A stretch of DNA of 20,000 nucleotides, taken from IMG/VR virus record IMGVR_UViG_3300050514_000222; one strand, 5' to 3'. This DNA comes from an uncultured virus (IMG/VR IMGVR_UViG_3300050514_000222) (lineage: Duplodnaviria > Heunggongvirae > Uroviricota > Caudoviricetes). The number at the start of each line of letters is the position of its first letter. Position 1 is the first letter of the stretch. Of the stretch, positions 1-17,407 are shown piece after piece. The notes beneath the pieces were generated by a model that saw only the letters and a list, made by a program, of their open reading frames with translations, searched no databases and was not told the DNA's origin. The position numbers were made by a program, and so were the translations under genes.

Positions 1-35
1 CGCTGCCGCCCGGACTGAAGATCGGAGGCTGAGGC

Positions 36-353
36 ATGGCGTCCAGACAGGACCTGCGGGACGTGATCGAGCTCGCGGCGCGCGCCATCGGCGCCGGCGA
101 GGACACCGGCGTCTTCGCGGCGGAGGATGCGGCCGCGGCCGCGGCGGCCTCCGGAGGCGCGCAACCGGTCGGCGCGCCCACGCCGGTGCAGCTCGGGATC
201 GCGACCACTGTCGCGGCGCCGATGATGGGGACGGTCGCCGGCAACGCGGACCTGACGTACGAGCTCACGCCGGACCAGGCCGCGCAGGTCGCCGCCGCGT
301 TCTCCGGCCTCGTGCAGCAGCTCAAGGACAAGGTGGCGGGGATTGAGGTCTAA
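36..353 (+). CDS. Hypothetical protein, probably virion-associated
   Basis: GGAGG/GAGG upstream of ATG; stop overlaps the next start (TAATG). Confidence 0.75.
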   Translation: MASRQDLRDVIELAARAIGAGEDTGVFAAEDAAAAAAASGGAQPVGAPTPVQLGIATTVAAPMMGTVAGNADLTYELTPDQAAQVAAAFSGLVQQLKDKVAGIEV

Positions 354-2008
354 TGTCCGCGGGCGTCACGCAACCCGGTGGTGCCGGCACGACGATCTTC
401 GTGTACGACAACACGCACGGGGACGCGGGCGGCGACGGCTCCTACTCCTTCGCCGACATCCTGGCCGCGATGAATACGCTGCGGCCGGGTCAGTCCGACA
501 TCGAGGGCGAGAAGGGTTCCGTCAGCGGAAACGCGCCCGCACGCACGAAATACATGATCAACGTCTCGATTCAGCTCGGCGGCGGCGCCGGGGACGGGAC
601 GCTCATCACGACGTTCAAGGACCTGAACGTCGACGTCGACTGGCGCAGCGGGTCGATGCTCTACCGATCGGGCGGCGGCGTGATCGAGACGCGGCTGGGC
701 ACCCAGACCGGGGTCGGGCCGCTCGGGCTCGCCGACCCGACGATGGGCGGCAAGGACGGCGTCAACATCAACAGCGGGTCGTGGACGTTCAAGAACGACC
801 TGTTCATCTTCGGTTGCAAGTTCATCTGCTCGAACGTCTACCAGGTCCAGACGATCGGCGGATCCACGCAGACGCTCGCCGGCAACACGTTCGTGGTCTC
901 CGGCGTGAACAACATCTTCGGGGACTCGACTTCGCTCGGGCTCTGGTACAACAACGTGTTCGTGCTCACGACGACGAGCGGGAACGCGATCAACGGGATG
1001 CGCCAGCAGGACGGCCGCGGAAACAAGTTCTTCTGCACGACGCCGCTCCAGATCCTGAGCGCGAGCCAAGCGACGGCGCGGATCCAGGGCGCGAACCTCT
1101 CCGGCGCGCCGTCGGTGGCCTACCTCAAGCCGACCGCGACGGACGCGAGCGACTGGAAGATCATCGACGTCGTCTTCCAGGACGACTCGCCGAGGGTCAC
1201 CTACTCGGTGGACCACACGCTCGCACAGGCGCTCCAGCAGTTCGGCCGGATCAACACGCACGTCGAGGACGGGACCAATCCGCTCGCGAACATCCCGGTC
1301 CGGCTCGTCTCGAGCGTGGCCGCGGACGACGGTGCCGGCGGCTCGAACGGCGGCGTGATCGTGGACACGAAGACGTTCGGAGACGGGGACCTCGGCTTCA
1401 CGCACGGACCGTCCGGCTACGCGAACGCTGTGCTCCTGCGCGAGTACTACCGCTCTGGCGGCGTGAACCTGGTACGCGACCGGACGTTCACGCTGTACGT
1501 CAACTACCCGGGCGGGGCGTACGCGCCGAACGCGGCGTACGGGAAGTACTCGCTCGTCTTCCAGTGGCCGGGGATCAACACGTTCAAGGGTGTCTACCAG
1601 GCCGGCGGAGGCACGTTCACGCCGTGCCTCCTGCCGATCACGCTGCCGGCCGCGGTCGGCCCTACGGCCGACTTCCGCTACACGCCGGGCGGGGGGTCCC
1701 CGGGCGTCTCGGTGACCTTCACGGACGAGTCGGTCGCGGGGGACGCCACGATCACGACCTGGGCGTGGACCTTCGGGGACGGCGGGACGTCCGCGGCGCA
1801 GAATCCGACGCACGTCTACGCGGCGGGCGGCCTCTACACCGTGGGCCTGACCGTGACGACGACGGTGGGATCCAGCGTGAAGACCGTGACGGGGGCCGTG
1901 TACGTCGCCACGCCGGCGTCTGTGGTTCCGGTCCGTGCGGCGGACGTGCCGCTACCGGAGCCCGGGGAGCTGAGGTATGAGGGAGTCGTGCCGGCGGTGC
2001 TCCCGTGA
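353..2008 (+). CDS. Virion structural/tail protein with C-terminal PKD domain
   Basis: 551 aa, Gly/Thr/Asn-rich and beta-rich. PKD signature PTADF...VTFTDES...WAWTFGDG...NPTHVY..GGLYTVGLTV at about 1661-1906. Confidence 0.85.
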   Translation: MSAGVTQPGGAGTTIFVYDNTHGDAGGDGSYSFADILAAMNTLRPGQSDIEGEKGSVSGNAPARTKYMINVSIQLGGGAGDGTLITTFKDLNVDVDWRSGSMLYRSGGGVIETRLGTQTGVGPLGLADPTMGGKDGVNINSGSWTFKNDLFIFGCKFICSNVYQVQTIGGSTQTLAGNTFVVSGVNNIFGDSTSLGLWYNNVFVLTTTSGNAINGMRQQDGRGNKFFCTTPLQILSASQATARIQGANLSGAPSVAYLKPTATDASDWKIIDVVFQDDSPRVTYSVDHTLAQALQQFGRINTHVEDGTNPLANIPVRLVSSVAADDGAGGSNGGVIVDTKTFGDGDLGFTHGPSGYANAVLLREYYRSGGVNLVRDRTFTLYVNYPGGAYAPNAAYGKYSLVFQWPGINTFKGVYQAGGGTFTPCLLPITLPAAVGPTADFRYTPGGGSPGVSVTFTDESVAGDATITTWAWTFGDGGTSAAQNPTHVYAAGGLYTVGLTVTTTVGSSVKTVTGAVYVATPASVVPVRAADVPLPEPGELRYEGVVPAVLP

Positions 2009-2358
2009 GCCCGGAGCTGCGTGCCGCGGCCGTGGAGGGGTTCGAGGGGATCACGCCGGCCGTGGCGGCCGTGGAGCTGGCGGCCGCGGCGGCCGAGCGG
2101 TTCGAGGACATGGCGCCCGTCCCGTACGGCGGGCAGGCCGGCTGGATCTCCCAGTACGTGACGATCGGCGGCGTGGAGATCCCGGCGGGTGCGGTGCCGA
2201 GCGGGCTGGTGGCGGCCACGCGCGCGGTGGAGCTCCAGGAGGCGGCCGTGGTGGCGTTCGACGGCATGGTCCCGTTGGTCCGGGTGACGGAGATCCAGGC
2301 GGACGGCCCGCTCGAGGGGATCACGCCGGCGGTGACGGTGACGGAGATCGGAGGGTGA
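2005..2358 (+). CDS. Hypothetical protein with short internal repeats (FEGITPAV-like)
   Basis: GTGA overlap with the upstream stop; four copies of a [FL][ED][GD]xxP motif. Confidence 0.7.
   Translation: MSPELRAAAVEGFEGITPAVAAVELAAAAAERFEDMAPVPYGGQAGWISQYVTIGGVEIPAGAVPSGLVAATRAVELQEAAVVAFDGMVPLVRVTEIQADGPLEGITPAVTVTEIGG
2042..2330 (+). repeat. 19-bp direct repeat TCGAGGGGATCACGCCGGC (2042-2060 and 2312-2330)
   Basis: Two identical copies, both encoding EGITPA within the CDS. Confidence 0.9.
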
Positions 2359-2359
2359 T

Positions 2360-2722
2360 GTGTCCAACCTGATGCCGGAGGTGCCGCGGGAGGTGCACGT
2401 GGGCGACGTCGGCCGCCGGCTGTCGTTCGCGTTCCTCAAGGCCACCCGGCTCGAGGTGCAGACGCTGACCGGCTACGCAGCGTGGGTGAAGTTCTGGTAC
2501 GGCGAGACGGCGCCGCACGTCACGCGGGCGTGCGCGGTGGACGGCGTGAACGGGCTGGCGATCTACGAGCTCCTTGGCGACGAGTACACCACGGTCGGCG
2601 AGCTCCTCGTCCAGTTCACAGTGTCCACCCCGGATTGGTACGCCGGCGGCGCGCCGGGACGGTTCTTCGCCCGCGTCTCCTCCGACATCATCCGGATGGT
2701 CGTCAAGCGGAGGCCGACGTGA
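2360..2722 (+). CDS. BppU N-terminal-like (baseplate/adaptor) protein
   Basis: Pattern VGDVGRRLSF...LTGY...G.AIY...G..LVQFTV resembles phage BppU_N-like domains; tail-module context. Confidence 0.6.
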   Translation: MSNLMPEVPREVHVGDVGRRLSFAFLKATRLEVQTLTGYAAWVKFWYGETAPHVTRACAVDGVNGLAIYELLGDEYTTVGELLVQFTVSTPDWYAGGAPGRFFARVSSDIIRMVVKRRPT

Positions 2723-4056
2723 GACGCCTGCCGCCGGTCTGGGACGGGGACCAGGGGCCGATCATGCGGTTCCCGGTGCGTGACGGGGCGAACCTCCGCG
2801 ACCTGGCCACGGCGACCGTCGAGGTCTACATCGAGAACGCCCAGGACGGCACCCGTATCGGGATGCGCCCCGGCTACATCGTCGGGACCAAAGCGTCCGG
2901 CGCCGTGGACGTCATGCTGAAGGGCGCGGAGACCGACTGGGGCGGCCTGGGTGCGGAGATCGTGCTGATCCCGCGGTTCTACTATGCCCAGACGATGGCG
3001 GCCGCGGGCGCGCCGGCGACCAACCTGCTCGCGAACGCCTCCTTCGACACGGACGGCAACGCGGACGGCGTGGCGGACTCCTGGAGCCTCCAGGGAGCCA
3101 AGACGGCCACCTGGGCGGTCGGTACGGACGACCCGGCCCCTCCGGTCATCTACGGGGCCTACCAGGCGGTCACGCACGCCGCCCTGACGGATCCGGACTA
3201 CATCCAGCAGGTCCTGGCGCCCACGTTGGCGCCCGGCGACGTGCTGTCCGTCGGGTGCTGGCACCGGAGCTACGGGGGAGCCGGCGAGGCGGCCTCGAAC
3301 GGGCACGCCCTGTTCTTCCACTTGGGTGCCACCGCCAACTCCTACGCGCAGCTGCGGGTGGGGGACAACGACTGGTACTTCACGATAGGGTCGGTGACCG
3401 CGGACGCGGCCTACGTGGCCGCCACGATGGGGATCGACCTCCGCGGGACGACCCTGTCGAACCGGCTGGACGAGGCGTTCGCGTTCGTCGGCCGGTGGTA
3501 CGTGTTCCATGGGGAGCGGAAGACGTTGCCGGTCCGGGCGTCGGTGGCCGTGTCGAAGAACTCGAACCAGATCGCCGGCGTCGGCGGGTTCGAGCAGGAC
3601 AGCGTAGGAGCGGGCTTCCCGGACGCGTGGAGCAATCAGGCGCCCGGGGTGACCTTCTCCATCGAGAAGGCACCCGCGAACGTCTCCGAGGGCCGGGCGG
3701 CCCTGAAGGTGGTACTGACCAACCAGTCCGCGAACCGAATCCGGCTGATCTGGCCCGGTAAGTATCTGGCCGGTGAGACCTGGAGGGTCGCGGTGGCCTC
3801 CAAGACCTCCGGAGCTCTCACCCCGGGCGGTGGCACCGGAGGGTACGCGGTGCAGCTCGCCACCGAACGGTTCGACGGGCCGGTCCAGACGTCCACGCTC
3901 GCGGCGCTGCCGACCAACGCGGCCGCCTACGCGGACACGACGGCGGACCTGGCGCTGACCGCGGATCGGAACCGGCTGATCGTGGACGTCTACCTGAACG
4001 GGGAGACGGGTACGGCTTGGTTGGACAACGTGAGGTTGTTCCGTGTGACGCCGTAG
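2719..4056 (+). CDS. Putative receptor-binding/tail protein: BppU-like N-terminus plus two CBM4/9-like carbohydrate-binding modules
   Basis: Start re-called at GTG 2719 (GGAGG RBS, GTGA overlap). Motifs NLLANASFD...DGVADSW, NQIAGVGGFEQD...FPDAW and terminal GTAWLDNVRL are typical of CBM4/9 jelly rolls. Confidence 0.75.
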   Translation: MRRLPPVWDGDQGPIMRFPVRDGANLRDLATATVEVYIENAQDGTRIGMRPGYIVGTKASGAVDVMLKGAETDWGGLGAEIVLIPRFYYAQTMAAAGAPATNLLANASFDTDGNADGVADSWSLQGAKTATWAVGTDDPAPPVIYGAYQAVTHAALTDPDYIQQVLAPTLAPGDVLSVGCWHRSYGGAGEAASNGHALFFHLGATANSYAQLRVGDNDWYFTIGSVTADAAYVAATMGIDLRGTTLSNRLDEAFAFVGRWYVFHGERKTLPVRASVAVSKNSNQIAGVGGFEQDSVGAGFPDAWSNQAPGVTFSIEKAPANVSEGRAALKVVLTNQSANRIRLIWPGKYLAGETWRVAVASKTSGALTPGGGTGGYAVQLATERFDGPVQTSTLAALPTNAAAYADTTADLALTADRNRLIVDVYLNGETGTAWLDNVRLFRVTP

Positions 4057-4114
4057 GCGCGCCGTTCGCCCGGTGCGTCGGGATGGGATCCAGGGAAGCG
4101 GGACGGGAGGAACG

Positions 4115-4468
4115 GTGCACCACCAGTGGACGTTCATGCCGCACGGGGCCTGCGTGGCGTGGGATCCGTTCATCATCTGGGGGAAGGCGCTGTCGGACGC
4201 GGTGATCGCCGCGGCGTACGTGATGATCGCGATCGGCCTGATCCTGATCCTGCGTAACGGGATCGAACTGGGCGCGGGGCAGCGGGCCGTGTTGCAGCTC
4301 GTGTTCGCGGCGTTCATCGCGAGTTGCGCGATGACGCACGTGATGGACGTGTTCACCATCTGGCGGCCGTGGTACGAGCTCGACACGGTCGTGCGGATGC
4401 TCACGGCCGGTTCCTCGCTCGCGGCCGCGATGGTGCTGTGGTCCTACCTCGATCCGAACGGAGCGTGA
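4115..4468 (+). CDS. Stand-alone ethylene-receptor (ETR1-like) three-TM sensor domain protein
   Basis: GGAGG RBS then GTG 4115, 117 aa. Contains FMPHGAC..W, SDAVIAAAY (cf. ETR1 SDFFIAIAY), FAAFIASCAMTH (cf. FGAFIVLCGATH) and RMLTAGSSLAAA (cf. KVLTAVVSCATA). Confidence 0.85.
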   Translation: MHHQWTFMPHGACVAWDPFIIWGKALSDAVIAAAYVMIAIGLILILRNGIELGAGQRAVLQLVFAAFIASCAMTHVMDVFTIWRPWYELDTVVRMLTAGSSLAAAMVLWSYLDPNGA

Positions 4469-4472
4469 CGCG

Positions 4473-4832
4473 GTGAACGGGAACGAGATCCGGACCTGGA
4501 AGCGCGTGGCGGTGGTCGGCGGCGCGATCGTGACGATCCTCACGCTGGCCGGCATGGGTTACGCGATCATCCTGTTCGTCGTGAACCTGTCGCTCACGCC
4601 GGTGCGGGCGCTCAGCGAGAAGTACCATCAGGAGACGAAGGACAAGATGAACGCCGAGTCGGACGCGCGCTACACGGGCGACACCACGATCATCTACCAG
4701 GTCGGCCTGATGGCGCGCGCCCTGAGCGAACCGGATCCCGGCGCGCGGCGGGTACTGCTCGAGCAGGTGCGGGAGGTTAAGGCGCCGCCCAAACCTCCTG
4801 ATTGGAAGGACGGGACCGACGGTGGGAACTGA
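4473..4832 (+). CDS. Single-TM membrane protein in lysis cassette (holin/antiholin/spanin-like candidate)
   Basis: Hydrophobic VAVVGGAIVTILTLAGMGYAIILFVV followed by a charged helical region; lies upstream of the endolysin. Confidence 0.6.
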   Translation: MNGNEIRTWKRVAVVGGAIVTILTLAGMGYAIILFVVNLSLTPVRALSEKYHQETKDKMNAESDARYTGDTTIIYQVGLMARALSEPDPGARRVLLEQVREVKAPPKPPDWKDGTDGGN

Positions 4833-5136
4833 CGACGAGCGGGGCGAGATAAGCGAGGACCGCCAGATCAAGTTCTCCCTCAGCTTGCGGCAATTGTGGC
4901 TGCTCGTCAGCGGCTTGGTGGCCGGTGTGGCGTTCGTGGCCATCTTCGTCTACCGGATCGAGTCGGCGCGGCTCGCGAACGAGACGCGGTGGGCGGACCA
5001 GTGGCGCTATAACACGGACAACACGCGCGCGCACGCGGTGATCGACAGTCTGGTGAACGACAACCGGTGGAGGGTGCGACGGCTGGAGAAGAAGGCCGGC
5101 ATCAAGACGCACCGTCGTGACGACGAGGAGGACTGA
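4822..5136 (+). CDS. Single-TM membrane protein in lysis cassette (holin-like candidate)
   Basis: TM segment LWLLVSGLVAGVAFVAIFVY, short coiled C-terminus (RVRRLEKK); directly precedes the endolysin. Confidence 0.6.
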   Translation: MGTDDERGEISEDRQIKFSLSLRQLWLLVSGLVAGVAFVAIFVYRIESARLANETRWADQWRYNTDNTRAHAVIDSLVNDNRWRVRRLEKKAGIKTHRRDDEED

Positions 5137-5137
5137 G

Positions 5138-5581
5138 ATGGAACTGACCCTGTTCGACCTGGCGAGCCGCTACGTCGGGATCCACGAGATCGCCGGGAAC
5201 GCGGACCACCCGCTCATCCAGTGGTGGCTCTCCCTGTGCGGGTTCCCGACCACCGTGCACGACGAGGTGGCGTGGTGCTCGGCGTTCGTGAACGGGATGG
5301 CGTGGGAGCTGCGGCTCAAGCGGAGCAAGTCCGCGGCCGCGCGGTCGTGGCTCACGGTCGGGACGGCCGTGGCGCTCCGCGACGCGGTGGCCGGCTATGA
5401 CGTGGTGGTGCTGAGACGCGGGACCGAGCCGCAGCCCGGACCGGACGTGCTGGCGGCTCCCGGTCACGTGGGGCTGTACGCGGGGCCGGGGAACATCCTC
5501 GGCGGCAACCAGGGCAACGGCGTGTGCGTCGAACCGTTCGACGAGTCGCGGCTGCTCGGCGTGAGGAGGTTGGTGGCATGA
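5138..5581 (+). CDS. TIGR02594-family NlpC/P60/CHAP-like peptidoglycan hydrolase (putative endolysin)
   Basis: GAGGAGG RBS, ATG 5138. Motifs YVGIHEIAG, DEVAWCSAFVN (Cys), AARSW, GHVGLY (His), LGGNQGN. Confidence 0.88.
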   Translation: MELTLFDLASRYVGIHEIAGNADHPLIQWWLSLCGFPTTVHDEVAWCSAFVNGMAWELRLKRSKSAAARSWLTVGTAVALRDAVAGYDVVVLRRGTEPQPGPDVLAAPGHVGLYAGPGNILGGNQGNGVCVEPFDESRLLGVRRLVA

Positions 5582-5946
5582 GGAGACGGGTCACACAGAT
5601 CGTCCTGTCCGCGCTGCTCATGGTCTCGGCGGCCGTCGCCGCGGCCGGCGAGCTCGTCTGGACCAACCCTCCGGGCAGGGTGCTCGGGATCCACTTCCTG
5701 GTCACGGCCCAGGACGGCCCGGCGCCGCGTGCGTGGGACCTCTACTACCCGCTGTACTACGTGGACGCGAAGGGTGACACGACGTGGAGGTCGCATGGCG
5801 GGATGCCGGACTCGCTCGCGTTCACCGGCTCCTGCCGTTCGGCGCCGGTGACGTACGTCTTCGTGTGCTTCGCGTGGAACGAGGCCGGGGAGTGCAAGGA
5901 CCCGTCGGACGGCGGGGTCCCGGTCAGCATGGTGGTACTACCCTGA
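5578..5946 (+). CDS. Secreted protein with possible fibronectin type III-like fold
   Basis: ATGA overlap; signal peptide MRRRVTQIVLSALLMVSAAVAAA; LVWT near the N-terminus and YVFVCFAWNEAGE resembling the FN3 Y.F.V.A.N..G motif. Confidence 0.6.
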   Translation: MRRRVTQIVLSALLMVSAAVAAAGELVWTNPPGRVLGIHFLVTAQDGPAPRAWDLYYPLYYVDAKGDTTWRSHGGMPDSLAFTGSCRSAPVTYVFVCFAWNEAGECKDPSDGGVPVSMVVLP

Positions 5947-5957
5947 AAGGAGCGGAC

Positions 5958-6617
5958 ATGTTCAAGAAGATCGAGGCGGTGCTCCGGACGTCGGAGTTCT
6001 GGATGTTCCTGGCGTCGGTGATCGTCCAGGCGATCGCGGCACCGGTGCCCGACGACGTGAAGGCCGCGGCCTGGGTCTACGTGGTCGCGCGTGTCGTCAG
6101 CAAGATCGTGAAGTACAAGCCGGCGCCGGCCGCTACGGCGGCCGCGGTGACGGCTGCGGCGCTGCTCCTCCTGGCGCCGCACGCCTACGCGCAGACGAAA
6201 CCGTCCACGGCCGACCGGATGCACGTGACCGTGAACGGCGGCGCGATGGTCATCACGACCGAGCCGAACTGGTCCGGCGCGAGCCTCGGAGCGGGGATCG
6301 GCTACAACCTGCATCCGGCGCTGACCGTCTTCGGAGGTTACGACCACGGCTTCCCGGTCAAACGGGACGAGTCTCACCTGAACCTCTACCGGGTGGTCGG
6401 CAACCTGCACGTACTGCCGGACGCGTTCGTCGGGTTCGGTTACGCATGGTTCGACCGGCACACGGACGGCGCGTTGGCACAGCTCGCGCTCACGCGGCAG
6501 GTGATGCGGAGGGTGGAGGTGGCCGGGATGTACGCGCACGTGATGTCTCGATCGGCGGCTCCGGACTTCGAGTACGTCCGGGTCTGCGTGAACTACCACC
6601 TCATCGGGAAGGAGTGA
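5958..6617 (+). CDS. Holin-like 2-TM domain fused via an internal signal peptide to an 8-stranded outer-membrane beta-barrel
   Basis: AAAGGAG RBS, ATG 5958. RTSEFW..(TM)..YVVARVVSK, then KYKP-hydrophobic-AYA|Q, then eight amphipathic strands (e.g. LGAGIGYNL, FVGFGYAWF, YVRVCVNYHL). Confidence 0.72.
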   Translation: MFKKIEAVLRTSEFWMFLASVIVQAIAAPVPDDVKAAAWVYVVARVVSKIVKYKPAPAATAAAVTAAALLLLAPHAYAQTKPSTADRMHVTVNGGAMVITTEPNWSGASLGAGIGYNLHPALTVFGGYDHGFPVKRDESHLNLYRVVGNLHVLPDAFVGFGYAWFDRHTDGALAQLALTRQVMRRVEVAGMYAHVMSRSAAPDFEYVRVCVNYHLIGKE

Positions 6618-6620
6618 CCC

Positions 6621-6902
6621 GTGGCGTTCAACATCTTCACGTTCCTGTCGACCCTCCTGGGCGGCCTCGACGTGCCGGACCTGGAGACGAAGGTGGTCGC
6701 GTGGTTGGAGAACGAGGCGGCCAAGTTCCCGGACCTCACGGCCCGCATCAAGGCGCTCGAGGAGTGGATCACGGCGGAGCTCGAGGCGGTGATCCCCCAA
6801 CTGGTGCTCTCGACGATGAAGAACACGATCTTCGGGATCGCCACGGACATCATCCACGGCACGGCGACGGTGGATCCGGGCGCCTGGAAGGGGATGGTCT
6901 GA
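6621..6902 (+). CDS. Hypothetical helical protein
   Basis: AAGGAG RBS, GTG start; last gene of the + strand block. Confidence 0.75.
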   Translation: MAFNIFTFLSTLLGGLDVPDLETKVVAWLENEAAKFPDLTARIKALEEWITAELEAVIPQLVLSTMKNTIFGIATDIIHGTATVDPGAWKGMV

Positions 6903-6977
6903 CGGTGGAGGGCCGGGATCGCCGGCGCGGACGGGTCGCTTGCGGCCTCCCGACCCCGCGCCGGTCCCCGGTCCGTC
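6901..6977. terminator. Long imperfect hairpin between convergent operons (putative bidirectional terminator)
   Basis: Nested complementary pairs GACGG/CCGTC, CCGGG/CCCGG, CCGGCGCG/CGCGCCGG and GGGTCG/CGACCC. No clear U-tract. Confidence 0.6.
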
Positions 6978-6978
6978 T

Positions 6979-7182
6979 TCAGGGGTTCATCCTGATGATG
7001 TTCAACAGCAGCACTACGATCGCGGCTATCAGGAGCGCCGGCCACCAGGTCCGGAACGCACGACGCCACCACGGCTGCGCACAACGCTCGCATAGCATTC
7101 TGATCCCGTCCCAGTCGTAGTCGCCGACCCCATCGTAGCCGCACCGCTCGCAGGCTGACGGCATCAACTTCCCTTTCGTCAC
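6979..7182 (-). CDS. Small Zn-ribbon membrane protein
   Basis: CERC...CERC followed by a C-terminal hydrophobic helix; GGAGG RBS. Confidence 0.7.
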   Translation of the reverse strand: MTKGKLMPSACERCGYDGVGDYDWDGIRMLCERCAQPWWRRAFRTWWPALLIAAIVVLLLNIIRMNP

Positions 7183-7192
7183 GGTTCCTCCC

Positions 7193-8506
7193 TCAGTCCT
7201 TGTACGGGTCGAACTCGTCCTCGCCGGCCATCGCCACGCCGATCGGGTGCAGCGTGTGCAGGACGCTCACGCTCCGTTCGTGGTGGCGCAGGACCTCCGG
7301 CAGCCGCTTGTAGCAGTGCGGCGACTCGTCGGTGCCGGCGCCGCGCAGCGTCACGCCCTTGGCGCCGATCCATTCGTGCATCATGGACCGCGAGATCCGT
7401 CCCTCACGGATCCGTTCCGACACGAACCGCTTGTGGGTGGTCGCGCCGCATTTCGGACACTTCGGGTTGGATCCGTCCGCGGCGCGCTTGGCGTCGTTCG
7501 TGAGCCACCCGTCGCAGTCGCGGTTCCCGCACGCCCACCCGGACCGGCGTTTCGTCTTTCCGGCGGCTTCGGTCCGCGACATCACGCGGCCGGCGCCGTG
7601 CACGGTGGAGTAGAGTGCGCGCTTCTGGTCCTCGTCCTCATCCAGCGTCGACGGGTAGACGCCCTCGAGGATCACCGAGTCGTCGCCCATGGATCCGCCC
7701 ACGAACCCGAGCTGGCCGGGGAACGCCGGCGTGGCGCCCTTCCGCACCACCCAGAGCTCCTCCCCGAAGTGCGTCTCCCGCCAGGCGTAGTTGTGGTGGT
7801 TGTGGACCTCCTCGAGGACCGTGGCGCCCAGGATACGCGCCACCTCCGCGCAGACCCAGTCACGGCCGGCGTAGGCGTAGCGGCCGGCGAGCGTCATGGC
7901 CTCCACGTAGTCGGCGCCGAGCGGGGTGCGGGCGCCGAGCACGAGCGGCGGCACGTGCATCCCGTCCGTCGCGCCGCCCATCTTGAGGAAATGCGTGGCC
8001 ACCTTGTGGCCGAACCCACGGGATCCGAAGTGGACGCCGATCCAGACGCGGCCGAGCTCGTCCTCGAACAGGTCGACGTAGTGGTTGCCGGACCCCACCG
8101 TGCCGAGCTGCGCGCGCGCCATCTCCTTCAACGGGGCGAGCGGCCGCATGGACCATCGTTCGTCGTCGAACAGCTCGTGGTCCACCCGCGTCTCGTTCCG
8201 TTGGCCGATGCCGAAGGAGATGCGCGAGGAGATGTCGTCCATGATCGCCTCGATGTCGAGCCGTACGGACGCCGCGTCCGCGTCGACGAGTACGGCCTTG
8301 TTCCCGCACCCGATGTCGTAGCCGACGCCGGACGGACTGACCGCGTCACGGTACGCCACCACGCCTCCGATCGGCACAGCGTAGCCGAGGTGGTGGTCGG
8401 CCATGAGCGCGACACGGTCGGCCGTCTGCGCGCACGTGCGGATCTGTTGGAGGGCACCTTCGTCCACCGGTTCGCCCCAGACCGGGATGCCGTCGATCAG
8501 CTTCAC
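7193..8506 (-). CDS. rtcB: RtcB family 3'-phosphate/5'-OH RNA ligase with Zn-ribbon insertion
   Basis: Start re-called at GTG 8506 (GAGGAGG RBS, GTGA overlap). Motifs DHHLGY..PIGGV, VGYDIGCG, GTVGSGNHY, HFGSRG, NHHNY, RKGATPA, HGAGR, DESP..YK. Confidence 0.96.
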   Translation of the reverse strand: MKLIDGIPVWGEPVDEGALQQIRTCAQTADRVALMADHHLGYAVPIGGVVAYRDAVSPSGVGYDIGCGNKAVLVDADAASVRLDIEAIMDDISSRISFGIGQRNETRVDHELFDDERWSMRPLAPLKEMARAQLGTVGSGNHYVDLFEDELGRVWIGVHFGSRGFGHKVATHFLKMGGATDGMHVPPLVLGARTPLGADYVEAMTLAGRYAYAGRDWVCAEVARILGATVLEEVHNHHNYAWRETHFGEELWVVRKGATPAFPGQLGFVGGSMGDDSVILEGVYPSTLDEDEDQKRALYSTVHGAGRVMSRTEAAGKTKRRSGWACGNRDCDGWLTNDAKRAADGSNPKCPKCGATTHKRFVSERIREGRISRSMMHEWIGAKGVTLRGAGTDESPHCYKRLPEVLRHHERSVSVLHTLHPIGVAMAGEDEFDPYKD

Positions 8507-8946
8507 GAACCCCTCCTCGATTCCGAGTATCGTAAAAGGTCGATGCGGTTCGCCAACTCCACGCATTTATCGTGATGGATCCTGTCACTCTTATAGCCGG
8601 CATAGATCATCAGGGCCTCACGGATCATACCGAACTGCTCGTCCGAGAACCTGTCGGACGGCCCCCACATCTCCTTCCCGCAACCCGAACAGAAGTAGAA
8701 CTTCAGGGTCGGTTCCTTCCCGCGGACCACACCCTTCTCCATGATGCCTGACGCGAGTTCCTCCACGACGTCGGACGGCACGCCGCGACGCAGCAGCTCC
8801 AACGTGAACTGGAGGACCTGGTAGGACTTCAGTACCGATTCGTGGACCCCGTTGCACGACGGATCCAGCAGGTGGACGTTGTCCCGTCTCACCGTCGTCT
8901 CCCACGCGCGGAGCTCGTCGATCTTGGCGAGTATGCCGGCGCTCAC
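8503..8946 (-). CDS. Hypothetical phage protein
   Basis: GTG 8946 with GGAGG RBS; 4-bp overlaps at both ends; one CSGC motif. Confidence 0.7.
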   Translation of the reverse strand: MSAGILAKIDELRAWETTVRRDNVHLLDPSCNGVHESVLKSYQVLQFTLELLRRGVPSDVVEELASGIMEKGVVRGKEPTLKFYFCSGCGKEMWGPSDRFSDEQFGMIREALMIYAGYKSDRIHHDKCVELANRIDLLRYSESRRGS

Positions 8947-9230
8947 CGTCCCTCCACCGTGAACGTGCCGGCGATGTGGTGCTGGACGCCGGCATCGTCC
9001 ACCCACCACGCCTCACCGCCGTTCGACTCCACCTTCGCGCGGGTCTCCCACTTCTCGATCACGCGTCCCTCGCACGTGTAGAGCGTGATCGTGGACCGCA
9101 GCATCACGGTGCCGGCCTTGAATCCGACCCAGGTGTTGCGGACCACGCCGCATCCGGACAGCGTGACGCAGGCCGTCCAGAGCAGCACCAGGGCCAACAC
9201 GGCGAGGATCATCCACTTCAGATAGCTCAC
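8943..9230 (-). CDS. Putative lipoprotein
   Basis: GTG 9230 with AGGAGG RBS; hydrophobic N-terminus ending in a lipobox-like LSGC. Confidence 0.7.
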   Translation of the reverse strand: MSYLKWMILAVLALVLLWTACVTLSGCGVVRNTWVGFKAGTVMLRSTITLYTCEGRVIEKWETRAKVESNGGEAWWVDDAGVQHHIAGTFTVEGR

Positions 9231-9907
9231 GTCAACACCTCCTTGGCGTACCAGTAGAGCCACAGTGCGTCGGCCTCGTCCTCGGACAGCGCGCAAAAAT
9301 CGACATCGGTCACACCGTCCGGTTTCTTCCCGATGACCTTTCCAACATATCCAGTCTCGCGATGGAGCCGGTTGAAGGCGGCCGCCACCATGGCCGGCTT
9401 GCCGCGGTCCACCGGGATCCGCTTCTCCTTCCTGGCGCGTCTATCACGCGTCTGCTTCGCCGTCTCCTTTGTCCGCGTGTCCGGGATGGCGAACGCCTTC
9501 AGCTTCTGGACGTGCACCGGCTGTAGCGGGATCCCGTGCAGCTCGCAGTGCTCCTCGAGCCGGCTGGTGAACGCTGCGGCGATCTCGGCGGCCGCGCGCG
9601 CCTTCGCCTGGAACTCCGACCGTTCGTACACGACCAGGTCCACCTTGACGAACGGGGACGGTGCGTTGAACGGGTGACTCACCGGTTCGTACGGCGGCTC
9701 GGCGACGTGGGCCGGCTTCCGGTACGGCGACAGCCTCACGAAGTCCGGTAACGTGACCTTCTCGAGCCAATGTCCGAACCGGCGCCAGCGGTTGCCGCTC
9801 GTCTCCCCGCGTTTCAGGCTGAAGTTCTCGGCGCCCCACTCGAGCCGTCCCGAATGATCGGTCGCCCACCCGGTGTGTGAGCCGGGGTCGATGGTCAGGA
9901 TCCTCAC
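9227..9907 (-). CDS. RuvC-like Holliday junction resolvase (phage type)
   Basis: RNase H-fold acidic motifs ILTIDPG..TGWA, VVYE and DEADAL. Confidence 0.85.
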   Translation of the reverse strand: MRILTIDPGSHTGWATDHSGRLEWGAENFSLKRGETSGNRWRRFGHWLEKVTLPDFVRLSPYRKPAHVAEPPYEPVSHPFNAPSPFVKVDLVVYERSEFQAKARAAAEIAAAFTSRLEEHCELHGIPLQPVHVQKLKAFAIPDTRTKETAKQTRDRRARKEKRIPVDRGKPAMVAAAFNRLHRETGYVGKVIGKKPDGVTDVDFCALSEDEADALWLYWYAKEVLT

Positions 9908-10167
9908 CGATTCTCCTTGAGGATCTGGACGGCTTGGTGGACGTCATGATTCGGTCCGGGACGGATGGGAGACGCCCACTTCTCCAGGAACGGCAACGCG
10001 CGCTCGATGCGTCCGAGGAGATCGTCGCGTTCCTTCTCGGCACGCATCAACAGATTCGCGAAATGGTCACGCCCACGCCAGAGCTCGCCGATGCGCCTCT
10101 CGCAGACCTTCAGTTCCTCGTGGTGGAGGCGAAGGGCGCGTTCGATGCGCAACCCGTGATGTCGCAT
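9904..10167 (-). CDS. Hypothetical coiled-coil protein (start uncertain)
   Basis: Stop overlaps the resolvase start (GTGA); helical charged sequence. ATG 10167 overlaps the upstream ORF by 58 bp. Confidence 0.55.
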   Translation of the reverse strand: MRHHGLRIERALRLHHEELKVCERRIGELWRGRDHFANLLMRAEKERDDLLGRIERALPFLEKWASPIRPGPNHDVHQAVQILKENR

Positions 10168-10430
10168 TTTCGAAGATCCCCATCGCACGTCCCCAGGAGG
10201 AAGGTCTGTGCTTCCCCCAAAATGTCCTCCACGTCGCGCCATTTCCCGGCCTCTAGAGAATCGTCAGGACGCGGCGTGGTGAACCTCAACGTCTCGGGAA
10301 CGGACGCACGTTCGTGCAACGCGATGCACGCCAGACCGTAGAGCGTCCCGATCTCTCCCTGACCGAGCGTACGTTTACCATCTCCGGCACGCATCAGTAG
10401 GTCGGCGAGCTGTTGCAGGGAGTCGGCCAT
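10110..10430 (-). CDS. Hypothetical protein
   Basis: TGATG coupling to the upstream gene. Confidence 0.55.
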   Translation of the reverse strand: MADSLQQLADLLMRAGDGKRTLGQGEIGTLYGLACIALHERASVPETLRFTTPRPDDSLEAGKWRDVEDILGEAQTFLLGTCDGDLRKCDITGCASNAPFASTTRN

Positions 10431-10654
10431 CAGTCGCTGTTGTGGTCGACGATGGGACCGGTGGTCTGGCCCGACGCGTCAATCTGGTTCTGTAGGTAGG
10501 AGGCATAGATCACCCCGCCGATCCAGATCGTGGCGCACGCCACCACGTACAGTATGAAGAACGCGGATCCGCGCTCTCCGCGCCTCCGCGCGTGTACCCG
10601 TTGCTCGTACTCCTCCACGAGCTCGTCGCCGGTCTTCAGCCGTTCCGTCTTCAT
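10430..10654 (-). CDS. Small single-TM membrane protein
   Basis: TM segment AFFILYVVACATIWIGGVIYA; ATGA overlap; GGAGG RBS. Confidence 0.7.
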   Translation of the reverse strand: MKTERLKTGDELVEEYEQRVHARRRGERGSAFFILYVVACATIWIGGVIYASYLQNQIDASGQTTGPIVDHNSD

Positions 10655-10947
10655 GGTTCCGTTCCCTCCCGTTCACGCGCCAGCGCCAACTTCAACCCCT
10701 CGCATTCCTTCTCCAACACCGCGACCTGCACGGTCAGACGATTGCGCTCCTCACGGACCTCCGCGATGAACAATGCGATCGAATCGGTGAACTTGTACAG
10801 GTCCGCATGATCGACCGTTTGGCTCACGCCGAGCCGGCGCCACTGTTCCGGTCGGCCGGTGATTATCGTCTTGACGTCGAAGCACTCATCCGTCACGCGG
10901 CCCACCACGAACGGCCGTTCCGTCGCCATCCACAGGCCGCCGCTCAT
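10651..10947 (-). CDS. Hypothetical protein with C-terminal coiled coil
   Basis: ATG 10947 overlaps the upstream stop (ATGA). Confidence 0.65.
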   Translation of the reverse strand: MSGGLWMATERPFVVGRVTDECFDVKTIITGRPEQWRRLGVSQTVDHADLYKFTDSIALFIAEVREERNRLTVQVAVLEKECEGLKLALAREREGTEP

Positions 10948-11249
10948 GTCGGCCCCATCACGATCTTGGCACCCAACACCCGGCAATATCCAGTGCAACC
11001 GAATGGGCAGGCGCACCGCAATCCGCCGATGTTCCGTTCTATCTGGTCCACGGTTGCCTGCGCCTCCTTCGCCTGCGCCCACCGCTCCATGTCCGCGCAG
11101 AACTGCCAGAGCTCCGCGGCGTCCACAGTGGAACCAGACCGGTAGGTGGCGTCCGAGGCGGCGTCCCGGATGTGGTGCCGGACGTCCTCCGGTTGGATCG
11201 CGTCGGCCGCCACGCGCTGGCGGATCCTCTCCATCAACTCCTTCGTCAT
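10944..11249 (-). CDS. Hypothetical protein
   Basis: AGGAGG RBS; Cys-rich C-terminus CACPFGCTGYC. Confidence 0.7.
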   Translation of the reverse strand: MTKELMERIRQRVAADAIQPEDVRHHIRDAASDATYRSGSTVDAAELWQFCADMERWAQAKEAQATVDQIERNIGGLRCACPFGCTGYCRVLGAKIVMGPT

Positions 11250-11258
11250 GCGACCCTC

Positions 11259-11390
11259 CTAATAGTCCTCGTCTTCCTCCTCGTCTTCCTCCTCGTCATC
11301 TTCGTAAGAATCGTCCTCGTCGTCTTCGTCCTCGAGATCGTACTCCTCGTCCTCATCGTCGCCGTACGGACCGTCCTGCATGGTCGTCAT
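11259..11390 (-). CDS. 43-aa hyper-acidic peptide (not in ORF track)
   Basis: Hand translation: MTTMQDGPYGDDEDEEYDLEDEDDEDDSYEDDEEEDEEEDEDY*. ATGA overlap with the recD2 stop and AGGAGG upstream; second ATG at 11381 has good RBS spacing; fills the gap between genes. Confidence 0.75.
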   Translation of the reverse strand: MTTMQDGPYGDDEDEEYDLEDEDDEDDSYEDDEEEDEEEDEDY

Positions 11391-17322: not shown

Positions 17323-17338
17323 GCGTCCTCCGATCGTA

Positions 17339-17364: not shown

Positions 17365-17407
17365 GTCTTGCGCGTACACCGATCCGGCGGGACCGGTAAC
17401 CGCGTCC

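What the first reader, a model, noticed from the sequence alone, without database searches (positions are those of the whole stretch)
4115..4468. Stand-alone ethylene-receptor sensor domain at the head of a phage lysis cassette
Seen: a 117-aa three-TM protein with its own RBS that aligns by eye with the ethylene-binding domain of Arabidopsis ETR1 and bacterial ETR-like sensors. D28/Y35 match ETR1 D25/Y32, FAAFI matches FGAFI, and C71-xxx-H75 (4325-4339) matches the C65/H69 site implicated in copper binding. The bacterial FMPHG.C..W leader is also present. P36 is replaced by Ala and K91 by Arg. Known: this domain is normally fused to GAF/PAS/histidine kinase or GGDEF outputs. Here it stops right after TM3, and sits between tail genes and the endolysin, where holins/antiholins usually lie. 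Inference: either (a) an ethylene/copper-responsive lysis regulator linking lysis timing to a plant hormone or gas, (b) a decoy that heterodimerises with host ETR-like kinases, or (c) a sensor fold exapted as a 3-TM holin. I know of no described phage system like this.
Basis: partly seen in the sequence, partly recalled or inferred. Interest (0 to 1): 0.93.

Follow-up and report, generated by a model that had tools for sequence, protein, structure and literature searches.

The report
Phage-borne output-less ethylene-receptor sensor domain
An uncultured soil phage carries, just upstream of its cell-wall-degrading enzyme, a small membrane protein that is a true copy of the copper-containing sensor domain of ethylene receptors with no signalling part attached; relatives occur in a few other phages, so it may link the timing of host lysis to a chemical signal.

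Summary
ORF 4115-4468 (117 aa) scores 77 bits against Pfam ETR1_N (cut-off 27). It folds as three long helices and stops 8 residues after helix 3. It keeps the Cu-site Cys/His and 6 of the 7 residues needed for ethylene binding in ETR1 (Pro36 is Ala).

The window is a siphovirus-like late operon: tail genes, this gene, two single-TM genes, then a TIGR02594 cell-wall hydrolase.

It is not a one-off. Five other virus-like lineages carry output-less ETR1_N genes. One lies directly before a GH108 endolysin. One lies in a TM/lipoprotein array before an M15 endolysin. All 80 best cellular relatives are fused to long outputs, run off their contig, or (one case) are split by a frameshift.

Stand-alone forms cluster together and 11 of 12 keep Cys and His. 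No cultured phage and no paper found has it.

Function is inferred. Most likely (about 0.4) it is an accessory lysis-timing component that acts on the neighbouring single-TM proteins and uses its copper/ligand site. Rivals are a plain holin, an unrelated late membrane protein, and a decoy of host sensor kinases. Ethylene or copper responsiveness is untested, and Pro36Ala argues for caution.

The parts
2482..4056 (+). Upstream late gene (524 aa), presumed tail or host-recognition protein. It ends 58 nt before the ETR1_N gene.
   Evidence: No Pfam, PHROG or NCBIfam family. It lies downstream of a PKD-domain protein (353-2008) and of the tape measure and head genes in G001. No relatives in viral contigs.
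4105..4110 (+). Shine-Dalgarno-like GGGAGG, 4 nt before the GTG start.
   Evidence: Read. The independent gene call P0005 uses the same start.
4115..4468 (+). Stand-alone ETR1_N (ethylene-receptor-type, Cu-site) three-helix membrane protein, 117 aa (P0001).
   Evidence: PF25487, 77 bits, E 1.4e-21. AF2 gives three helices, pLDDT 88. GC3 is 0.90. The identical protein is recorded on 4 contig entries in 2 rows.
4139..4162 (+). Family-invariant N-terminal leader P9-H-G-x-C13-x-x-W16, presumed periplasmic.
   Evidence: H, G, C and W are kept in 12 of 12 stand-alone rows, and in 179, 179, 179 and 178 of 180 fused rows.
4196..4231 (+). Helix-1 ligand-site residues: D28 (ETR1 D25), Y35 (Y32), I38 (I35), A39 (P36 replaced by Ala).
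   Evidence: Residue roles come from passages of PMC6586836 and PMC11819568. The role of Y32 is recalled from Wang et al. 2006, which was not held.
4316..4339 (+). Helix-2 site: I68 (ETR1 I62), C71 (C65), H75 (H69), the putative Cu(I) ligands.
   Evidence: C and H are 180 of 180 in fused rows and 11 of 12 in stand-alone rows.
4394..4396 (+). R94, at the position of ETR1 K91 / AzoEtr1 K98 (output-linked Lys).
   Evidence: The spacing H75+19 equals AzoEtr1 H79 to K98. In fused rows the position is K in 132 and R in 42 of 180. In the 12 stand-alone rows it is R in 8, K in 3 and D in 1.
4473..4832 (+). P0002, 119 aa. One N-terminal TM helix and an 82-residue charged C-terminal domain. It starts 4 nt after the ETR1_N stop.
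   Evidence: No family. The protein atlas gave only leads under 0.9.
4822..5136 (+). P0003, 104 aa. A charged 24-residue N-terminus, one TM helix and a 61-residue highly charged C-tail. It overlaps P0002 by 11 nt. It is the candidate holin-type partner of the hydrolase.
   Evidence: Atlas look-alikes are clusters of 90-98-aa proteins, 58-68% of members viral, scoring 0.93-0.94, with no family. An architecturally similar single-TM gene lies directly upstream of each P0004 relative examined.
5138..5581 (+). P0004, 147 aa. TIGR02594 / NlpC-P60-like peptidoglycan hydrolase, probably the endolysin, with no signal or TM segment.
   Evidence: TIGR02594 67.9 bits (cut-off 70.55). phrog_1259 E 3e-18. 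469 phage records hold a relative; the genera the output names are Gram-negative, and 15 further genera were not listed. No TM segment.
5578..5946 (+). 122-aa ORF with an N-terminal signal-like hydrophobic segment and no lipobox.
   Evidence: Not scanned against families on its own.
5958..6617 (+). 219-aa ORF. It has two mildly hydrophobic N-terminal helices, a signal-like segment and a beta-rich C-terminal part. Role unknown.
   Evidence: The longer 277-aa reading gave only weak Pfam hits, E 0.05-0.6.

Best explanation
P0001 is an intact, output-less member of the ETR1_N family, the three-helix membrane domain that in ETR1 holds Cu(I) on Cys65/His69 and binds ethylene. An uncultured siphovirus-like phage of a probably Gram-negative host encodes it. 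It belongs to a small set of stand-alone ETR1_N proteins found so far on virus-like contigs and not among the closest cellular relatives.

It is transcribed with the late genes, at the head of a tight run of small membrane-protein genes that ends in the cell-wall hydrolase.

Most likely it is an accessory lysis-timing component, working like an antiholin or holin partner. It would sit in the inner membrane as an N-out/C-in three-helix dimer with its metal/ligand pocket intact. Having no cytoplasmic output, it would act laterally on the neighbouring single-TM proteins (P0002 and/or P0003). Its ligand, copper or redox state would then advance or delay hole formation and release of the hydrolase.

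Shown here: domain identity, intactness, retention of the site residues, phage origin, operon position, recurrence in other phage lineages.

Inferred: topology, dimerisation, copper binding, any ligand, any contact with P0002/P0003, any effect on lysis.
For: Domain identity and intactness:
- Pfam 77 bits against a cut-off of 27. AF2 gives three helices, pLDDT 88. GC3 is 0.90.

Operon position:
- The gaps between genes are 58 nt, 4 nt, an 11-nt overlap and 1 nt from the tail-side gene through to the hydrolase.
- No promoter-like site and no +-strand terminator-like site lies in 3500-7600. It therefore does not look like an independently expressed moron.

Recurrence near lysis genes:
- L049: a 133-aa ETR1_N (94 bits) is separated only by a 60-aa 2-TM ORF from a GH108 + PG_binding_3 endolysin (61 bits; phrog_315 81.9 bits). 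Two more TM proteins precede it.
- L006/L007: an ETR1_N-like ORF follows the tailspike region. After it come two single-TM ORFs, a 108-aa ORF with one weak hydrophobic segment and a lipobox lipoprotein, then two ORFs without family, then an M15 endolysin 3.4 kb downstream.
- L035: the next gene is a single-TM protein, then the contig ends.
- L004: a single-TM protein directly precedes it and a second lies about 0.8 kb upstream.

The site is under constraint, as in sensors. Stand-alone n=12 against fused n=180:
- C65 site 11/12 against 180/180
- H69 site 11/12 against 180/180
- Y32 site 11/12 against 180/180
- I62 site 12/12 against 178/180
- D25 site 10/12 (the other 2 have Asn) against 158/180
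- leader H-G-x-C-x-x-W 12/12
This holds although the other 11 stand-alone proteins are only 30-50% identical to P0001.

Accessory rather than sole holin:
- The five viral contigs relatives of P0004 (49-63% identical; L140-L142 look like one lineage, so three lineages) have no ETR1_N and no 3-TM gene.
- In the three read in detail (L141, L143, L144) a single-TM 89-118-aa gene lies directly upstream of the hydrolase. L140 and L142 show the same ORF set as L141 where they overlap.
- P0001's tail after helix 3 is 8 residues with no basic residue.

Phage-restricted stand-alone state:
- All 4 viral-contig hits (3 lineages) are stand-alone.
- None of the 80 best genome loci is truly stand-alone.
- Stand-alone forms group together. 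FastTree puts the window with P0007 and P0011 at 97. The clade L004/L035/L049 has 95 in IQ-TREE.
- Trees that hold the 7, or all 11, stand-alone rows together score better than the free quick tree (p-AU 0.844 and 0.636).
Against: - No experiment and no interaction test. The complex predictor was unavailable.
- The neighbouring single-TM proteins of the different lineages show no sequence similarity to each other, so 'conserved partner' rests on architecture only.
- Synteny is not universal. L005's copy lies beside a replication-initiation-like gene, with the only endolysin-like ORF 3.6 kb away on the other strand. No hydrolase was recognised among the 7 ORFs of L004 that I scanned.
- With five evaluable lineages and two within three genes of a hydrolase, the association is only modestly better than chance. 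My rough estimate is p about 0.05, assuming about 7.5% of phage genes lie that close.
- L006/L007 has lost Cys, His and Tyr yet keeps an intact ORF in the cassette. The membrane role there does not need the metal site, which fits a plain holin.
- P0001 has Ala at the ETR1 Pro36 position, listed among the residues essential for ethylene binding (PMC6586836 passages). In stand-alone rows this site is Pro in only 7 of 12, against 170 of 180 fused rows (Fisher p 8e-4).
- P0004 could be a tail-associated lysin rather than the endolysin.
- Six of the 12 stand-alone proteins come from 0.9-3.7-kb contigs whose phage origin I could not check.
Confidence: 0.4

Rival explanations
1. Plain holin. The three-helix N-out/C-in scaffold of a captured sensor domain has been exapted as a class-I-like hole former. 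The conserved Cys/His and leader residues are kept for folding, dimerisation or raft formation, not for sensing.
For: - Size (117 aa) and three TM helices.
- First gene of the membrane-protein run before a cytoplasmic hydrolase that lacks a signal or SAR segment and so needs a holin.
- Several relatives have a charged C-tail, for example L049, L004, L006, P0011 and P0188.
- L006/L007 lost the metal ligands but stays intact in a lysis-type cassette.
- The different endolysin types next to it (TIGR02594, GH108, M15) are, from general knowledge of lysis cassettes, the mosaic pattern usual for holin genes.
Against: - No Pfam or PHROG holin family matches.
- P0001's own tail is 8 residues with one acidic and no basic residue.
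- Every cassette also has other small TM proteins that could be the holin.
- P0004-type hydrolases elsewhere pair with one single-TM protein and nothing else.
- 11 of 12 stand-alone proteins keep the whole ligand site at only 30-50% identity to P0001, which is more constraint than a scaffold role predicts.
Confidence: 0.22
2. A late-expressed membrane protein unrelated to lysis, for example copper handling, protection of the infected cell envelope, or exclusion of other phages. It would sit at the tail/lysis junction only because accessory genes tend to collect there.
For: - L005's copy is in an early/replication-type neighbourhood, and no hydrolase was recognised among the 7 ORFs of L004 that I scanned.
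- The association with hydrolases is statistically modest (see the best explanation).
- ETR1's sensor domain binds Cu(I) very tightly, with a dissociation constant of about 1.3e-15 M (PMC6586836 passages). A copper-binding role needs no output domain.
Against: - Tight coupling into the late operon without its own promoter-like or terminator-like signals.
- Small TM genes directly flank it in 4 of 6 lineages (window, L035, L006, L049). In L004 one directly precedes it and a second lies about 0.8 kb upstream. A hydrolase lies within 3.5 kb on the same strand in 3 of 6.
- Late expression is a poor time for exclusion or host-protective functions (inference).
Confidence: 0.24
3. A decoy. The output-less domain heterodimerises with a host ETR1_N sensor kinase or cyclase and silences or locks its signalling.
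For: - ETR1-type domains work as dimers through helices 1 and 2 (PMC6586836 passages).
- The family is widespread in bacteria of the kinds likely to host such phages: Burkholderiales, Alphaproteobacteria, Bacteroidota and others.
- The conserved leader Cys (12 of 12) could form the intermolecular disulfide described for plant receptors (PMC6682694 passages).
Against: - The nearest fused relatives are only 49-50% identical.
- Stand-alone proteins group with each other rather than each with a cellular sensor. A decoy that must track its host's receptor would show the opposite.
- The gene is in the late operon, when manipulating host signalling has little value (inference).
- The host is unknown, so whether it has a target could not be checked.
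Confidence: 0.1
4. A decaying fragment of a captured host sensor kinase with no function.
For: Truncated or split sensor genes do exist. L083 is split by a frameshift. Several short database proteins with the long 'fused-type' leader nest inside fused clades.
Against: - Intact ORF with an RBS and coding-type GC3.
- The stop comes cleanly 8 residues after helix 3, with no kinase remnant downstream; the next gene starts 4 nt later.
- The identical protein is on 4 contig entries.
- Stand-alone relatives exist in at least five other virus-like lineages, with family-invariant residues kept.
- The subfamily has a distinctly short leader: 5-13 residues before P-H-G, against a median of 14 in 127 fused proteins (Mann-Whitney p 8e-5).
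Confidence: 0.03

Closest known systems
Ethylene-binding domain of ETR1 (Arabidopsis) and of the bacterial receptors SynEtr1 (Synechocystis) and AzoEtr1 (Azospirillum); Pfam PF25487 ETR1_N
   Same: - Same domain family by profile (77 bits).
- Three TM helices.
- Cys/His pair in helix 2, Asp/Tyr/Ile in helix 1, Ile in helix 2, and the bacterial P-H-G-x-C-x-x-W leader.
- The spacing equals that given for AzoEtr1.
   Different: - No GAF, PAS, kinase or any other output; the protein ends 8 residues after helix 3.
- Encoded by a phage in a late operon.
- Ala at the Pro36 position and Arg at the Lys91 position.
- Shorter N-terminal leader.
- Copper and ethylene binding are untested.
Class I holins such as lambda S105 (recalled knowledge, not tested against a sequence here)
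   Same: - About 100-aa protein with three TM helices, presumed N-out/C-in.
- Gene lies just upstream of the lysis enzyme in a late operon.
- Paired with diverse hydrolase types in different phages.
   Different: - No sequence or profile similarity to any holin family in Pfam or PHROGs.
- No charged C-terminal tail in P0001.
- Carries a conserved metal/ligand pocket.
- Other candidate holins are present in the same cassette.
Antiholins that couple lysis timing to a signal, such as T4 RI acting on holin T in lysis inhibition (recalled knowledge)
   Same: The proposed logic is the same: a small membrane or periplasm-facing sensor protein without enzymatic output, encoded near lysis genes, sets the time at which the holin fires by protein-protein contact.
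   Different: - Unrelated sequence and fold.
- The signal here would be a membrane-soluble ligand or copper/redox state rather than superinfection.
- No interaction has been shown.
Phage-encoded copies of host signal receptors, such as the VqmA-type quorum-sensing receptor of vibriophage VP882 (recalled knowledge)
   Same: A phage carries a homologue of a bacterial sensory protein, which would let it read an environmental or host signal to decide when to kill the cell.
   Different: - VP882's receptor is a complete transcription factor that controls the lysis-lysogeny switch.
- Here only the membrane sensor module is present, and it sits in the lysis cassette itself.

Membership tests
ETR1_N domain family (PF25487) | Profile score above the curated gathering threshold | tested here: met
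   77 bits against 27, E 1.4e-21, covering profile positions 2-91 of 97. G001's copy scores 77.2 bits.
ETR1_N domain family (PF25487) | Three transmembrane helices | tested here: met
   The AF2 model has helices 18-47, 54-83 and 87-110, pLDDT 88. The hydropathy scan finds helices 1 and 2 clearly and helix 3 below threshold.
ETR1_N domain family (PF25487) | Cys and His four residues apart in helix 2 (ETR1 C65/H69, the copper-linked residues) | tested here: met
   C71 and H75. These columns are invariant in 180 of 180 fused relatives.
Ethylene-binding-competent receptor domain (ETR1, SynEtr1, AzoEtr1 type) | All seven residues required for ethylene binding in ETR1: D25, Y32, I35, P36, I62, C65, H69 | tested here: not met
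   Six of seven are present (D28, Y35, I38, I68, C71, H75). The P36 position is Ala39. The residue list comes from passages of PMC6586836 and PMC11819568; Y32 is recalled. Whether Ala abolishes binding in this background is unknown.
Ethylene-binding-competent receptor domain (ETR1, SynEtr1, AzoEtr1 type) | Binds Cu(I) and ethylene | not testable with these tools
   Needs purified protein (BCA/Cu(I) titration) and radiolabelled ethylene binding.
Ethylene receptor / ETR1_N sensor kinase (signalling protein) | Cytoplasmic output module (GAF, PAS, His-kinase, GGDEF and the like) fused after helix 3 | tested here: not met
   The stop codon comes 8 residues after helix 3 and the next gene starts 4 nt later. 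Among the 80 genome loci, 72 have 260 or more residues after the domain.
Holin (functional class) | Small membrane protein with at least one TM helix, encoded beside the endolysin gene | tested here: met
   117 aa, three helices, two genes (670 nt) upstream of the hydrolase.
Holin (functional class) | Hydrophilic, highly charged C-terminal tail | tested here: not met
   The tail is Y-L-D-P-N-G-A, with no basic residue. Some relatives do have a charged tail.
Holin (functional class) | Match to a described holin family profile | tested here: not met
   No holin family in Pfam (E<=1) or PHROGs (E<=0.1). Foldseek against BFVD gave no match at E<=1e-3.
Holin (functional class) | Forms membrane lesions that release endolysin at a set time | not testable with these tools
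   Needs a lysis or complementation assay.
TIGR02594 / NlpC-P60-like phage cell-wall hydrolase (for neighbour P0004) | Profile score above the curated cut-off | tested here: inconclusive
   67.9 bits against a cut-off of 70.55. phrog_1259 E 3.2e-18. 469 phage records hold relatives. Pfam NLPC_P60 is only E 0.19.

The most novel reading that the evidence does not exclude
Phages of soil and rhizosphere bacteria carry a dedicated lineage of output-less ethylene-receptor sensor domains. These domains still bind Cu(I) and a membrane-soluble ligand (ethylene or another small unsaturated molecule). They gate the holin through lateral contact with single-TM partners. The time of host lysis would then depend on a plant-derived or microbial gas, or on copper/redox state. 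That would be a ligand-gated lysis switch built from a hormone-receptor module.
Probability: 0.13. Interest if true: 0.95.

Novelty: new variant of a known kind. Interest (0 to 1): 0.72.

Why it matters
The ethylene-binding domain is known as the input module of plant, cyanobacterial and a few proteobacterial receptors, always joined to a signalling output. Here it stands alone in phages, repeatedly next to lysis genes, with its copper-site residues under constraint.

- It would be a natural minimal version (117 aa) of a domain whose structure is still unsolved (no PDB relative). That makes it attractive for structural and binding work.
- It raises the testable idea that phage lysis can be tuned by a small-molecule or metal cue sensed inside the membrane.
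- It shows that phages have kept a sensor module for a long time without any recognisable output. This asks how such a module signals.

Even if it proves to be a plain holin, it would be a holin family with a traceable origin in a sensor domain, which I believe is unusual.

Tried and rejected
Searches for relatives that found nothing:
- Cultured phages. No DNA match to window 3000-7000. No tblastn match in 50,697 GenBank phage records for three different stand-alone ETR1_N proteins: P0001, L049's and P0188. The major head protein of G001 also had no match.
- Viral contigs. P0001 alone found none. Alignment A1 found 4 loci. Alignment A3 found none new. P0188 found none. The upstream 524-aa protein found none.
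- The search for homologous proteins at near lengths with P0001 alone returned only its own cluster.

Structure and fold:
- PDB sequence search: no relative at E<=1.
- Foldseek of the model against PDB and BFVD: nothing at E<=1e-3, only generic helical bundles.

Neighbour proteins:
- BLASTP between the single-TM neighbours of different lineages showed no similarity.
- Protein atlas: only leads below 0.9 for P0002; unnamed phage clusters for P0003.

Tools that gave no result:
- Complex prediction (P0001 alignment + P0002) was never run. The queue was full and then the tool was declared unavailable.
- The genome search on the window's own assembly and on 'relatives' was not possible for a virus record.
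- Earlier findings of this scan: nothing for this sequence.

Expression and habitat:
- No RNA holder was listed. One DNA run, labelled rhizosphere metagenome, holds the stretch and may be its source. It is not independent evidence of habitat.

RNA genes: no tRNA and no Rfam family in the window.

Literature. No relevant paper came from these full-text searches:
- 'ethylene-binding domain' + bacteria + phage: 0 papers.
- 'holin' + 'ethylene receptor': 3 unrelated papers, judged from listings only.
- 'ethylene-binding domain' + bacteriophage: 1 unrelated paper, judged from the listing only.
- Output-domain terms: nothing on stand-alone domains in the 12 listed.
- Wang et al. 2006 (PMC1785413) is not held. 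Carlew et al. 2019 (Small Methods), which surveys non-plant receptors, was seen only as a reference, so I cannot exclude that it mentions domain-only proteins.

Rejected idea: L083 as a cellular stand-alone form. It is a frameshift-split kinase.
Full report
**What is in the sequence**

The window is 68% G+C. ORF 4115-4468 on the + strand starts at GTG, 4 nt after GGGAGG (4105-4110), and encodes 117 aa. Its frame has coding-type composition, with GC3 of 0.90.

Pfam places it in ETR1_N (PF25487, 'Ethylene receptor 1-like, N-terminal domain') with E 1.4e-21 and 77 bits against a curated cut-off of 27. The match covers residues 20-112 and profile positions 2-91 of 97. PHROGs and NCBIfam have nothing for it.

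An exhaustive phmmer search of 1.84 billion representatives found 5112 relatives at E<=1e-3 and 1905 at E<=1e-10. Most of the 150 listed are several hundred to more than a thousand residues long, with the domain at the N-terminus.

An AlphaFold2 model built on a 40-row alignment has pLDDT 88 and pTM 0.78. It shows three long helices (18-47, 54-83, 87-110) and then only a short tail.

**Residues**

Passages of PMC6586836 name C65 and H69 as the copper-linked residues of ETR1. They name I35, P36 and I62 among the residues essential for ethylene binding. Passages of PMC11819568 add D25 and K91 and give the AzoEtr1 equivalents (D35, C75, H79, K98). Y32 is from my recollection of Wang et al. 2006, which was not held.

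By spacing, P0001 has:
- D28 for ETR1 D25
- Y35 for Y32
- I38 for I35
- A39 for P36
- I68 for I62
- C71 for C65
- H75 for H69
- R94 for K91

I had no ETR1 sequence to align, so the mapping is an inference from invariant motif spacing.

**The surroundings**

Window bases 1-17883 are identical to bases 15738-33620 of an IMG/VR record (G001, 33.6 kb). Upstream, that record encodes a major head protein (phrog_1005) and a tape-measure protein.

In the window the + strand carries, in order:
- a PKD-domain protein (353-2008)
- several ORFs without family, including a 524-aa protein (2482-4056)
- the ETR1_N gene (4115-4468)
- P0002 (4473-4832): one N-terminal TM helix and an 82-residue charged domain
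- P0003 (4822-5136): a charged N-terminus, one TM helix and a 61-residue charged tail
- P0004 (5138-5581)

The gaps between them are 58 nt, 4 nt, an 11-nt overlap and 1 nt. No promoter-like site and no +-strand terminator-like site was found in 3500-7600.

P0004 is a TIGR02594-type hydrolase. It scores 67.9 bits, just under the cut-off of 70.55, and phrog_1259 at E 3e-18. It has no signal or TM segment. Its relatives occur in 469 GenBank phage records. The genera the output names are Gram-negative, and 15 further genera were not listed. The relatives are annotated variously as endolysin, peptidoglycan-binding protein or tail lysozyme.

The minus strand beyond 7193 carries RtcB, a RuvC-like resolvase, a RecD2-like helicase, a HerA-like ATPase and an exonuclease.

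The setting is therefore a phage late operon, with the gene at the junction of the tail genes and a lysis-type cluster. 'Endolysin' for P0004 is probable, not proven.

**Is it a one-off?**

No. Scans of IMG/VR, JGI metagenomes and GTDB genomes and ORF reading gave the following output-less ETR1_N genes on virus-like contigs.

- L049: 133 aa, 94 bits. Tail-fibre-like ORFs and two TM proteins precede it. A 60-aa 2-TM ORF follows, then a GH108 + PG_binding_3 endolysin (61 bits; phrog_315 81.9 bits). A possible lipoprotein and a lysozyme-like ORF lie further on.
- L035: 88.6 bits. Large ORFs without family precede it and a single-TM protein follows, after which the 4.3-kb contig ends.
- L004: 133 aa, 77.8 bits. 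A single-TM protein directly precedes it and a second lies about 0.8 kb upstream. The contig also has a portal gene. No hydrolase was recognised among the 7 ORFs I scanned.
- L005: 72.7 bits, 39% G+C, on a 65-kb contig. It lies beside a replication-initiation-like gene. An endolysin-like ORF is 3.6 kb away on the other strand.
- L006 and L007: 12,237 bp, 100% identical, so one lineage. The ORF is a degenerate copy (25.4 bits, below the cut-off) that has lost the Cys, His and Tyr. It lies after a tailspike region. After it come two single-TM ORFs, a 108-aa ORF with one weak hydrophobic segment and a lipobox lipoprotein, then two ORFs without family, then an M15 endolysin 3.4 kb downstream.

Further short, apparently complete proteins exist in metagenomes: P0007, P0011, P0035, P0037, P0105 and P0150, and P0160, P0177, P0182 and P0188. 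The first six are each recorded on 1-4 contigs of 0.9-3.7 kb. P0188 is on 7 contigs of up to 50.7 kb. I could not see their contexts.

By contrast, the 80 best genome loci break down as follows:
- 72 have 260 or more residues after the domain.
- 7 run off the contig.
- 1 short ORF (L083) is continued in another frame by a His-kinase.

Of the 52 metagenome loci, only the window's own contig, L035 and L049 are stand-alone with a stop soon after helix 3. L043 has an 87-residue tail, one locus (L016) could not be read in the reported frame, and the other 47 are fused or cut by contig ends.

**Relationships**

In a FastTree of 211 domain rows, the window protein groups with P0007 and P0011 (support 97). 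These sit beside P0035, P0150, P0037 and P0105. L004, L035 and L049 form another group. The 211 rows came from 238, after I removed 27 near-duplicates and dropped P0005 as a copy of P0001.

An IQ-TREE 'quick' tree of 56 rows gives the L004/L035/L049 clade 95, but is otherwise poorly resolved. That set left out L006 for its very long branch and used a random sample of 32 fused rows.

Holding the seven short metagenomic or window proteins together gives a tree 22.7 log-likelihood units better than the free search (p-AU 0.844). Holding all 11 stand-alone rows together gives one 7.0 units better (p-AU 0.636).

A single old origin of the stand-alone forms is therefore not rejected. It is also not shown: the alignment has 114 columns, the branches are long, and I named the groups after seeing a first tree.

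The stand-alone proteins also share a shorter leader. They have 5-13 residues before P-H-G, against a median of 14 in 127 fused proteins.

**Constraint on the site**

I compared 180 fused rows with the 12 stand-alone rows.

| ETR1 position | Fused (of 180) | Stand-alone (of 12) |
|---|---|---|
| C65 | 180 | 11 |
| H69 | 180 | 11 |
| Y32 | 180 | 11 |
| I62 | 178 | 12 |
| I35 | 175 | 11 |
| D25 | 158 (18 Asn) | 10 (2 Asn) |

- The leader H-G-x-C-x-x-W is complete in 12 of 12 stand-alone rows.
- The only marked relaxation is at P36: Pro in 170 of 180 fused rows against 7 of 12 stand-alone rows (Fisher p 8e-4; rows are not independent).
The exception is L006/L007.

**What it most likely does**

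Three findings suggest the protein belongs to the lysis programme:
- It is packed tightly into the late operon.
- It recurs among small membrane-protein genes.
- It lies next to hydrolases of three different families.

Two findings favour an accessory role over the holin itself:
- The five viral contigs relatives of P0004 (49-63% identical; L140-L142 look like one lineage, so three lineages) lack any ETR1_N or 3-TM gene. In L141, L143 and L144 a single-TM, 89-118-aa gene with a charged helical tail lies directly upstream of the hydrolase. This is the architecture of P0003, although without detectable sequence similarity.
- P0001 has no charged C-tail.

The sensor-like conservation of the pocket then suggests that the pocket matters. 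My best reading (0.4) is a lysis-timing component that acts on the neighbouring single-TM proteins, with its copper/ligand state as the input.

The rivals are:
- Plain holin (0.22). L006/L007 keeps the ORF without the metal ligands, and several relatives have charged tails.
- An unrelated late membrane function (0.24). L004 and L005 lack a clear lysis context, and with five evaluable lineages the association is only marginal.
- A decoy of host sensors (0.10). The phage proteins group with each other, are at most 50% identical to any fused relative, and are expressed late.
- A decaying fragment (0.03).

Nothing here shows copper or ethylene binding, and the Pro36Ala change is a specific reason for doubt about ethylene.

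**Habitat and literature**

The only listed sequencing run holding this DNA is labelled a rhizosphere metagenome and may be its source. This is suggestive for a plant-gas idea but is not independent evidence.

Three stand-alone ETR1_N queries found no relative in 50,697 GenBank phage records. Four full-text searches found no paper on a phage or stand-alone ethylene-binding domain. The non-plant receptor survey by Carlew et al. was not readable here.

**Verdict**

This is a real and unusual feature: a phage-restricted, output-less variant of a known sensor domain. Its link to lysis is supported but unproven, and its ligand is untested.

Noticed in passing
window 4822-5581; L141 3579-4465; L143 3735-4345; L144 1695-2416: A two-gene unit recurs in the window and three other viral lineages: a single-TM protein of about 90-118 aa with a charged helical tail, directly followed by (or overlapping) a TIGR02594-type hydrolase. 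The TM proteins show no detectable sequence similarity to each other. It may be a minimal holin-endolysin pair.
   Followed up: partly
window 5958-6617: A 219-aa ORF with an odd layout: two mildly hydrophobic N-terminal helices, then a signal-peptide-like segment, then a beta-rich C-terminal part. The longer reading gave weak porin-like hits (E 0.05-0.06). It could be another lysis or outer-membrane-directed protein.
   Followed up: no
window 5578-5946: A 122-aa ORF with an N-terminal signal-like segment and several Cys, overlapping the hydrolase stop by 4 nt. It has no lipobox, and no o-spanin-type lipoprotein was seen in this cassette.
   Followed up: no
window 7193-8566 (-): A phage-encoded RtcB RNA ligase (217 bits). 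Its C-terminal extension of about 115 residues carries Cys pairs and gives a weak YdjO-like hit. It may serve tRNA repair against host anticodon nucleases.
   Followed up: no
window 9227-16785 (-): Replication/recombination block: a RuvC-like resolvase, a RecD2-like helicase (777 aa), a HerA/FtsK-like ATPase that also hits a terminase PHROG weakly, and an exonuclease.
   Followed up: no
L006 and L007 (whole loci): Two IMG/VR records of different length (38.6 kb and 88.3 kb) share an identical 12,237-bp stretch that includes the degenerate ETR1_N-like ORF. It is the same phage, or the same prophage region, assembled twice.
   Followed up: partly
L083 4947-6013: In an Omnitrophota MAG the ETR1_N sensor gene is split. 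A 168-aa ORF ends and the His-kinase part continues in another frame, overlapping by 4 nt. This is a frameshift or an assembly error.
   Followed up: partly
alignment column of P0001 A39 (ETR1 P36): The Pro36 position is the only family-invariant site clearly relaxed in stand-alone proteins: 7 of 12 Pro, against 170 of 180 in fused sensors. If this residue serves signal transmission to an output domain, its relaxation would fit the loss of that domain.
   Followed up: partly
L049 5554-6099 and 8627-9001: This virus-like contig has two peptidoglycan-hydrolase-type ORFs: a GH108 with PG_binding_3, and a 124-aa Phage_lysozyme-like ORF (24.9 bits). A 486-aa ORF and a possible lipoprotein lie between them.
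   Followed up: no
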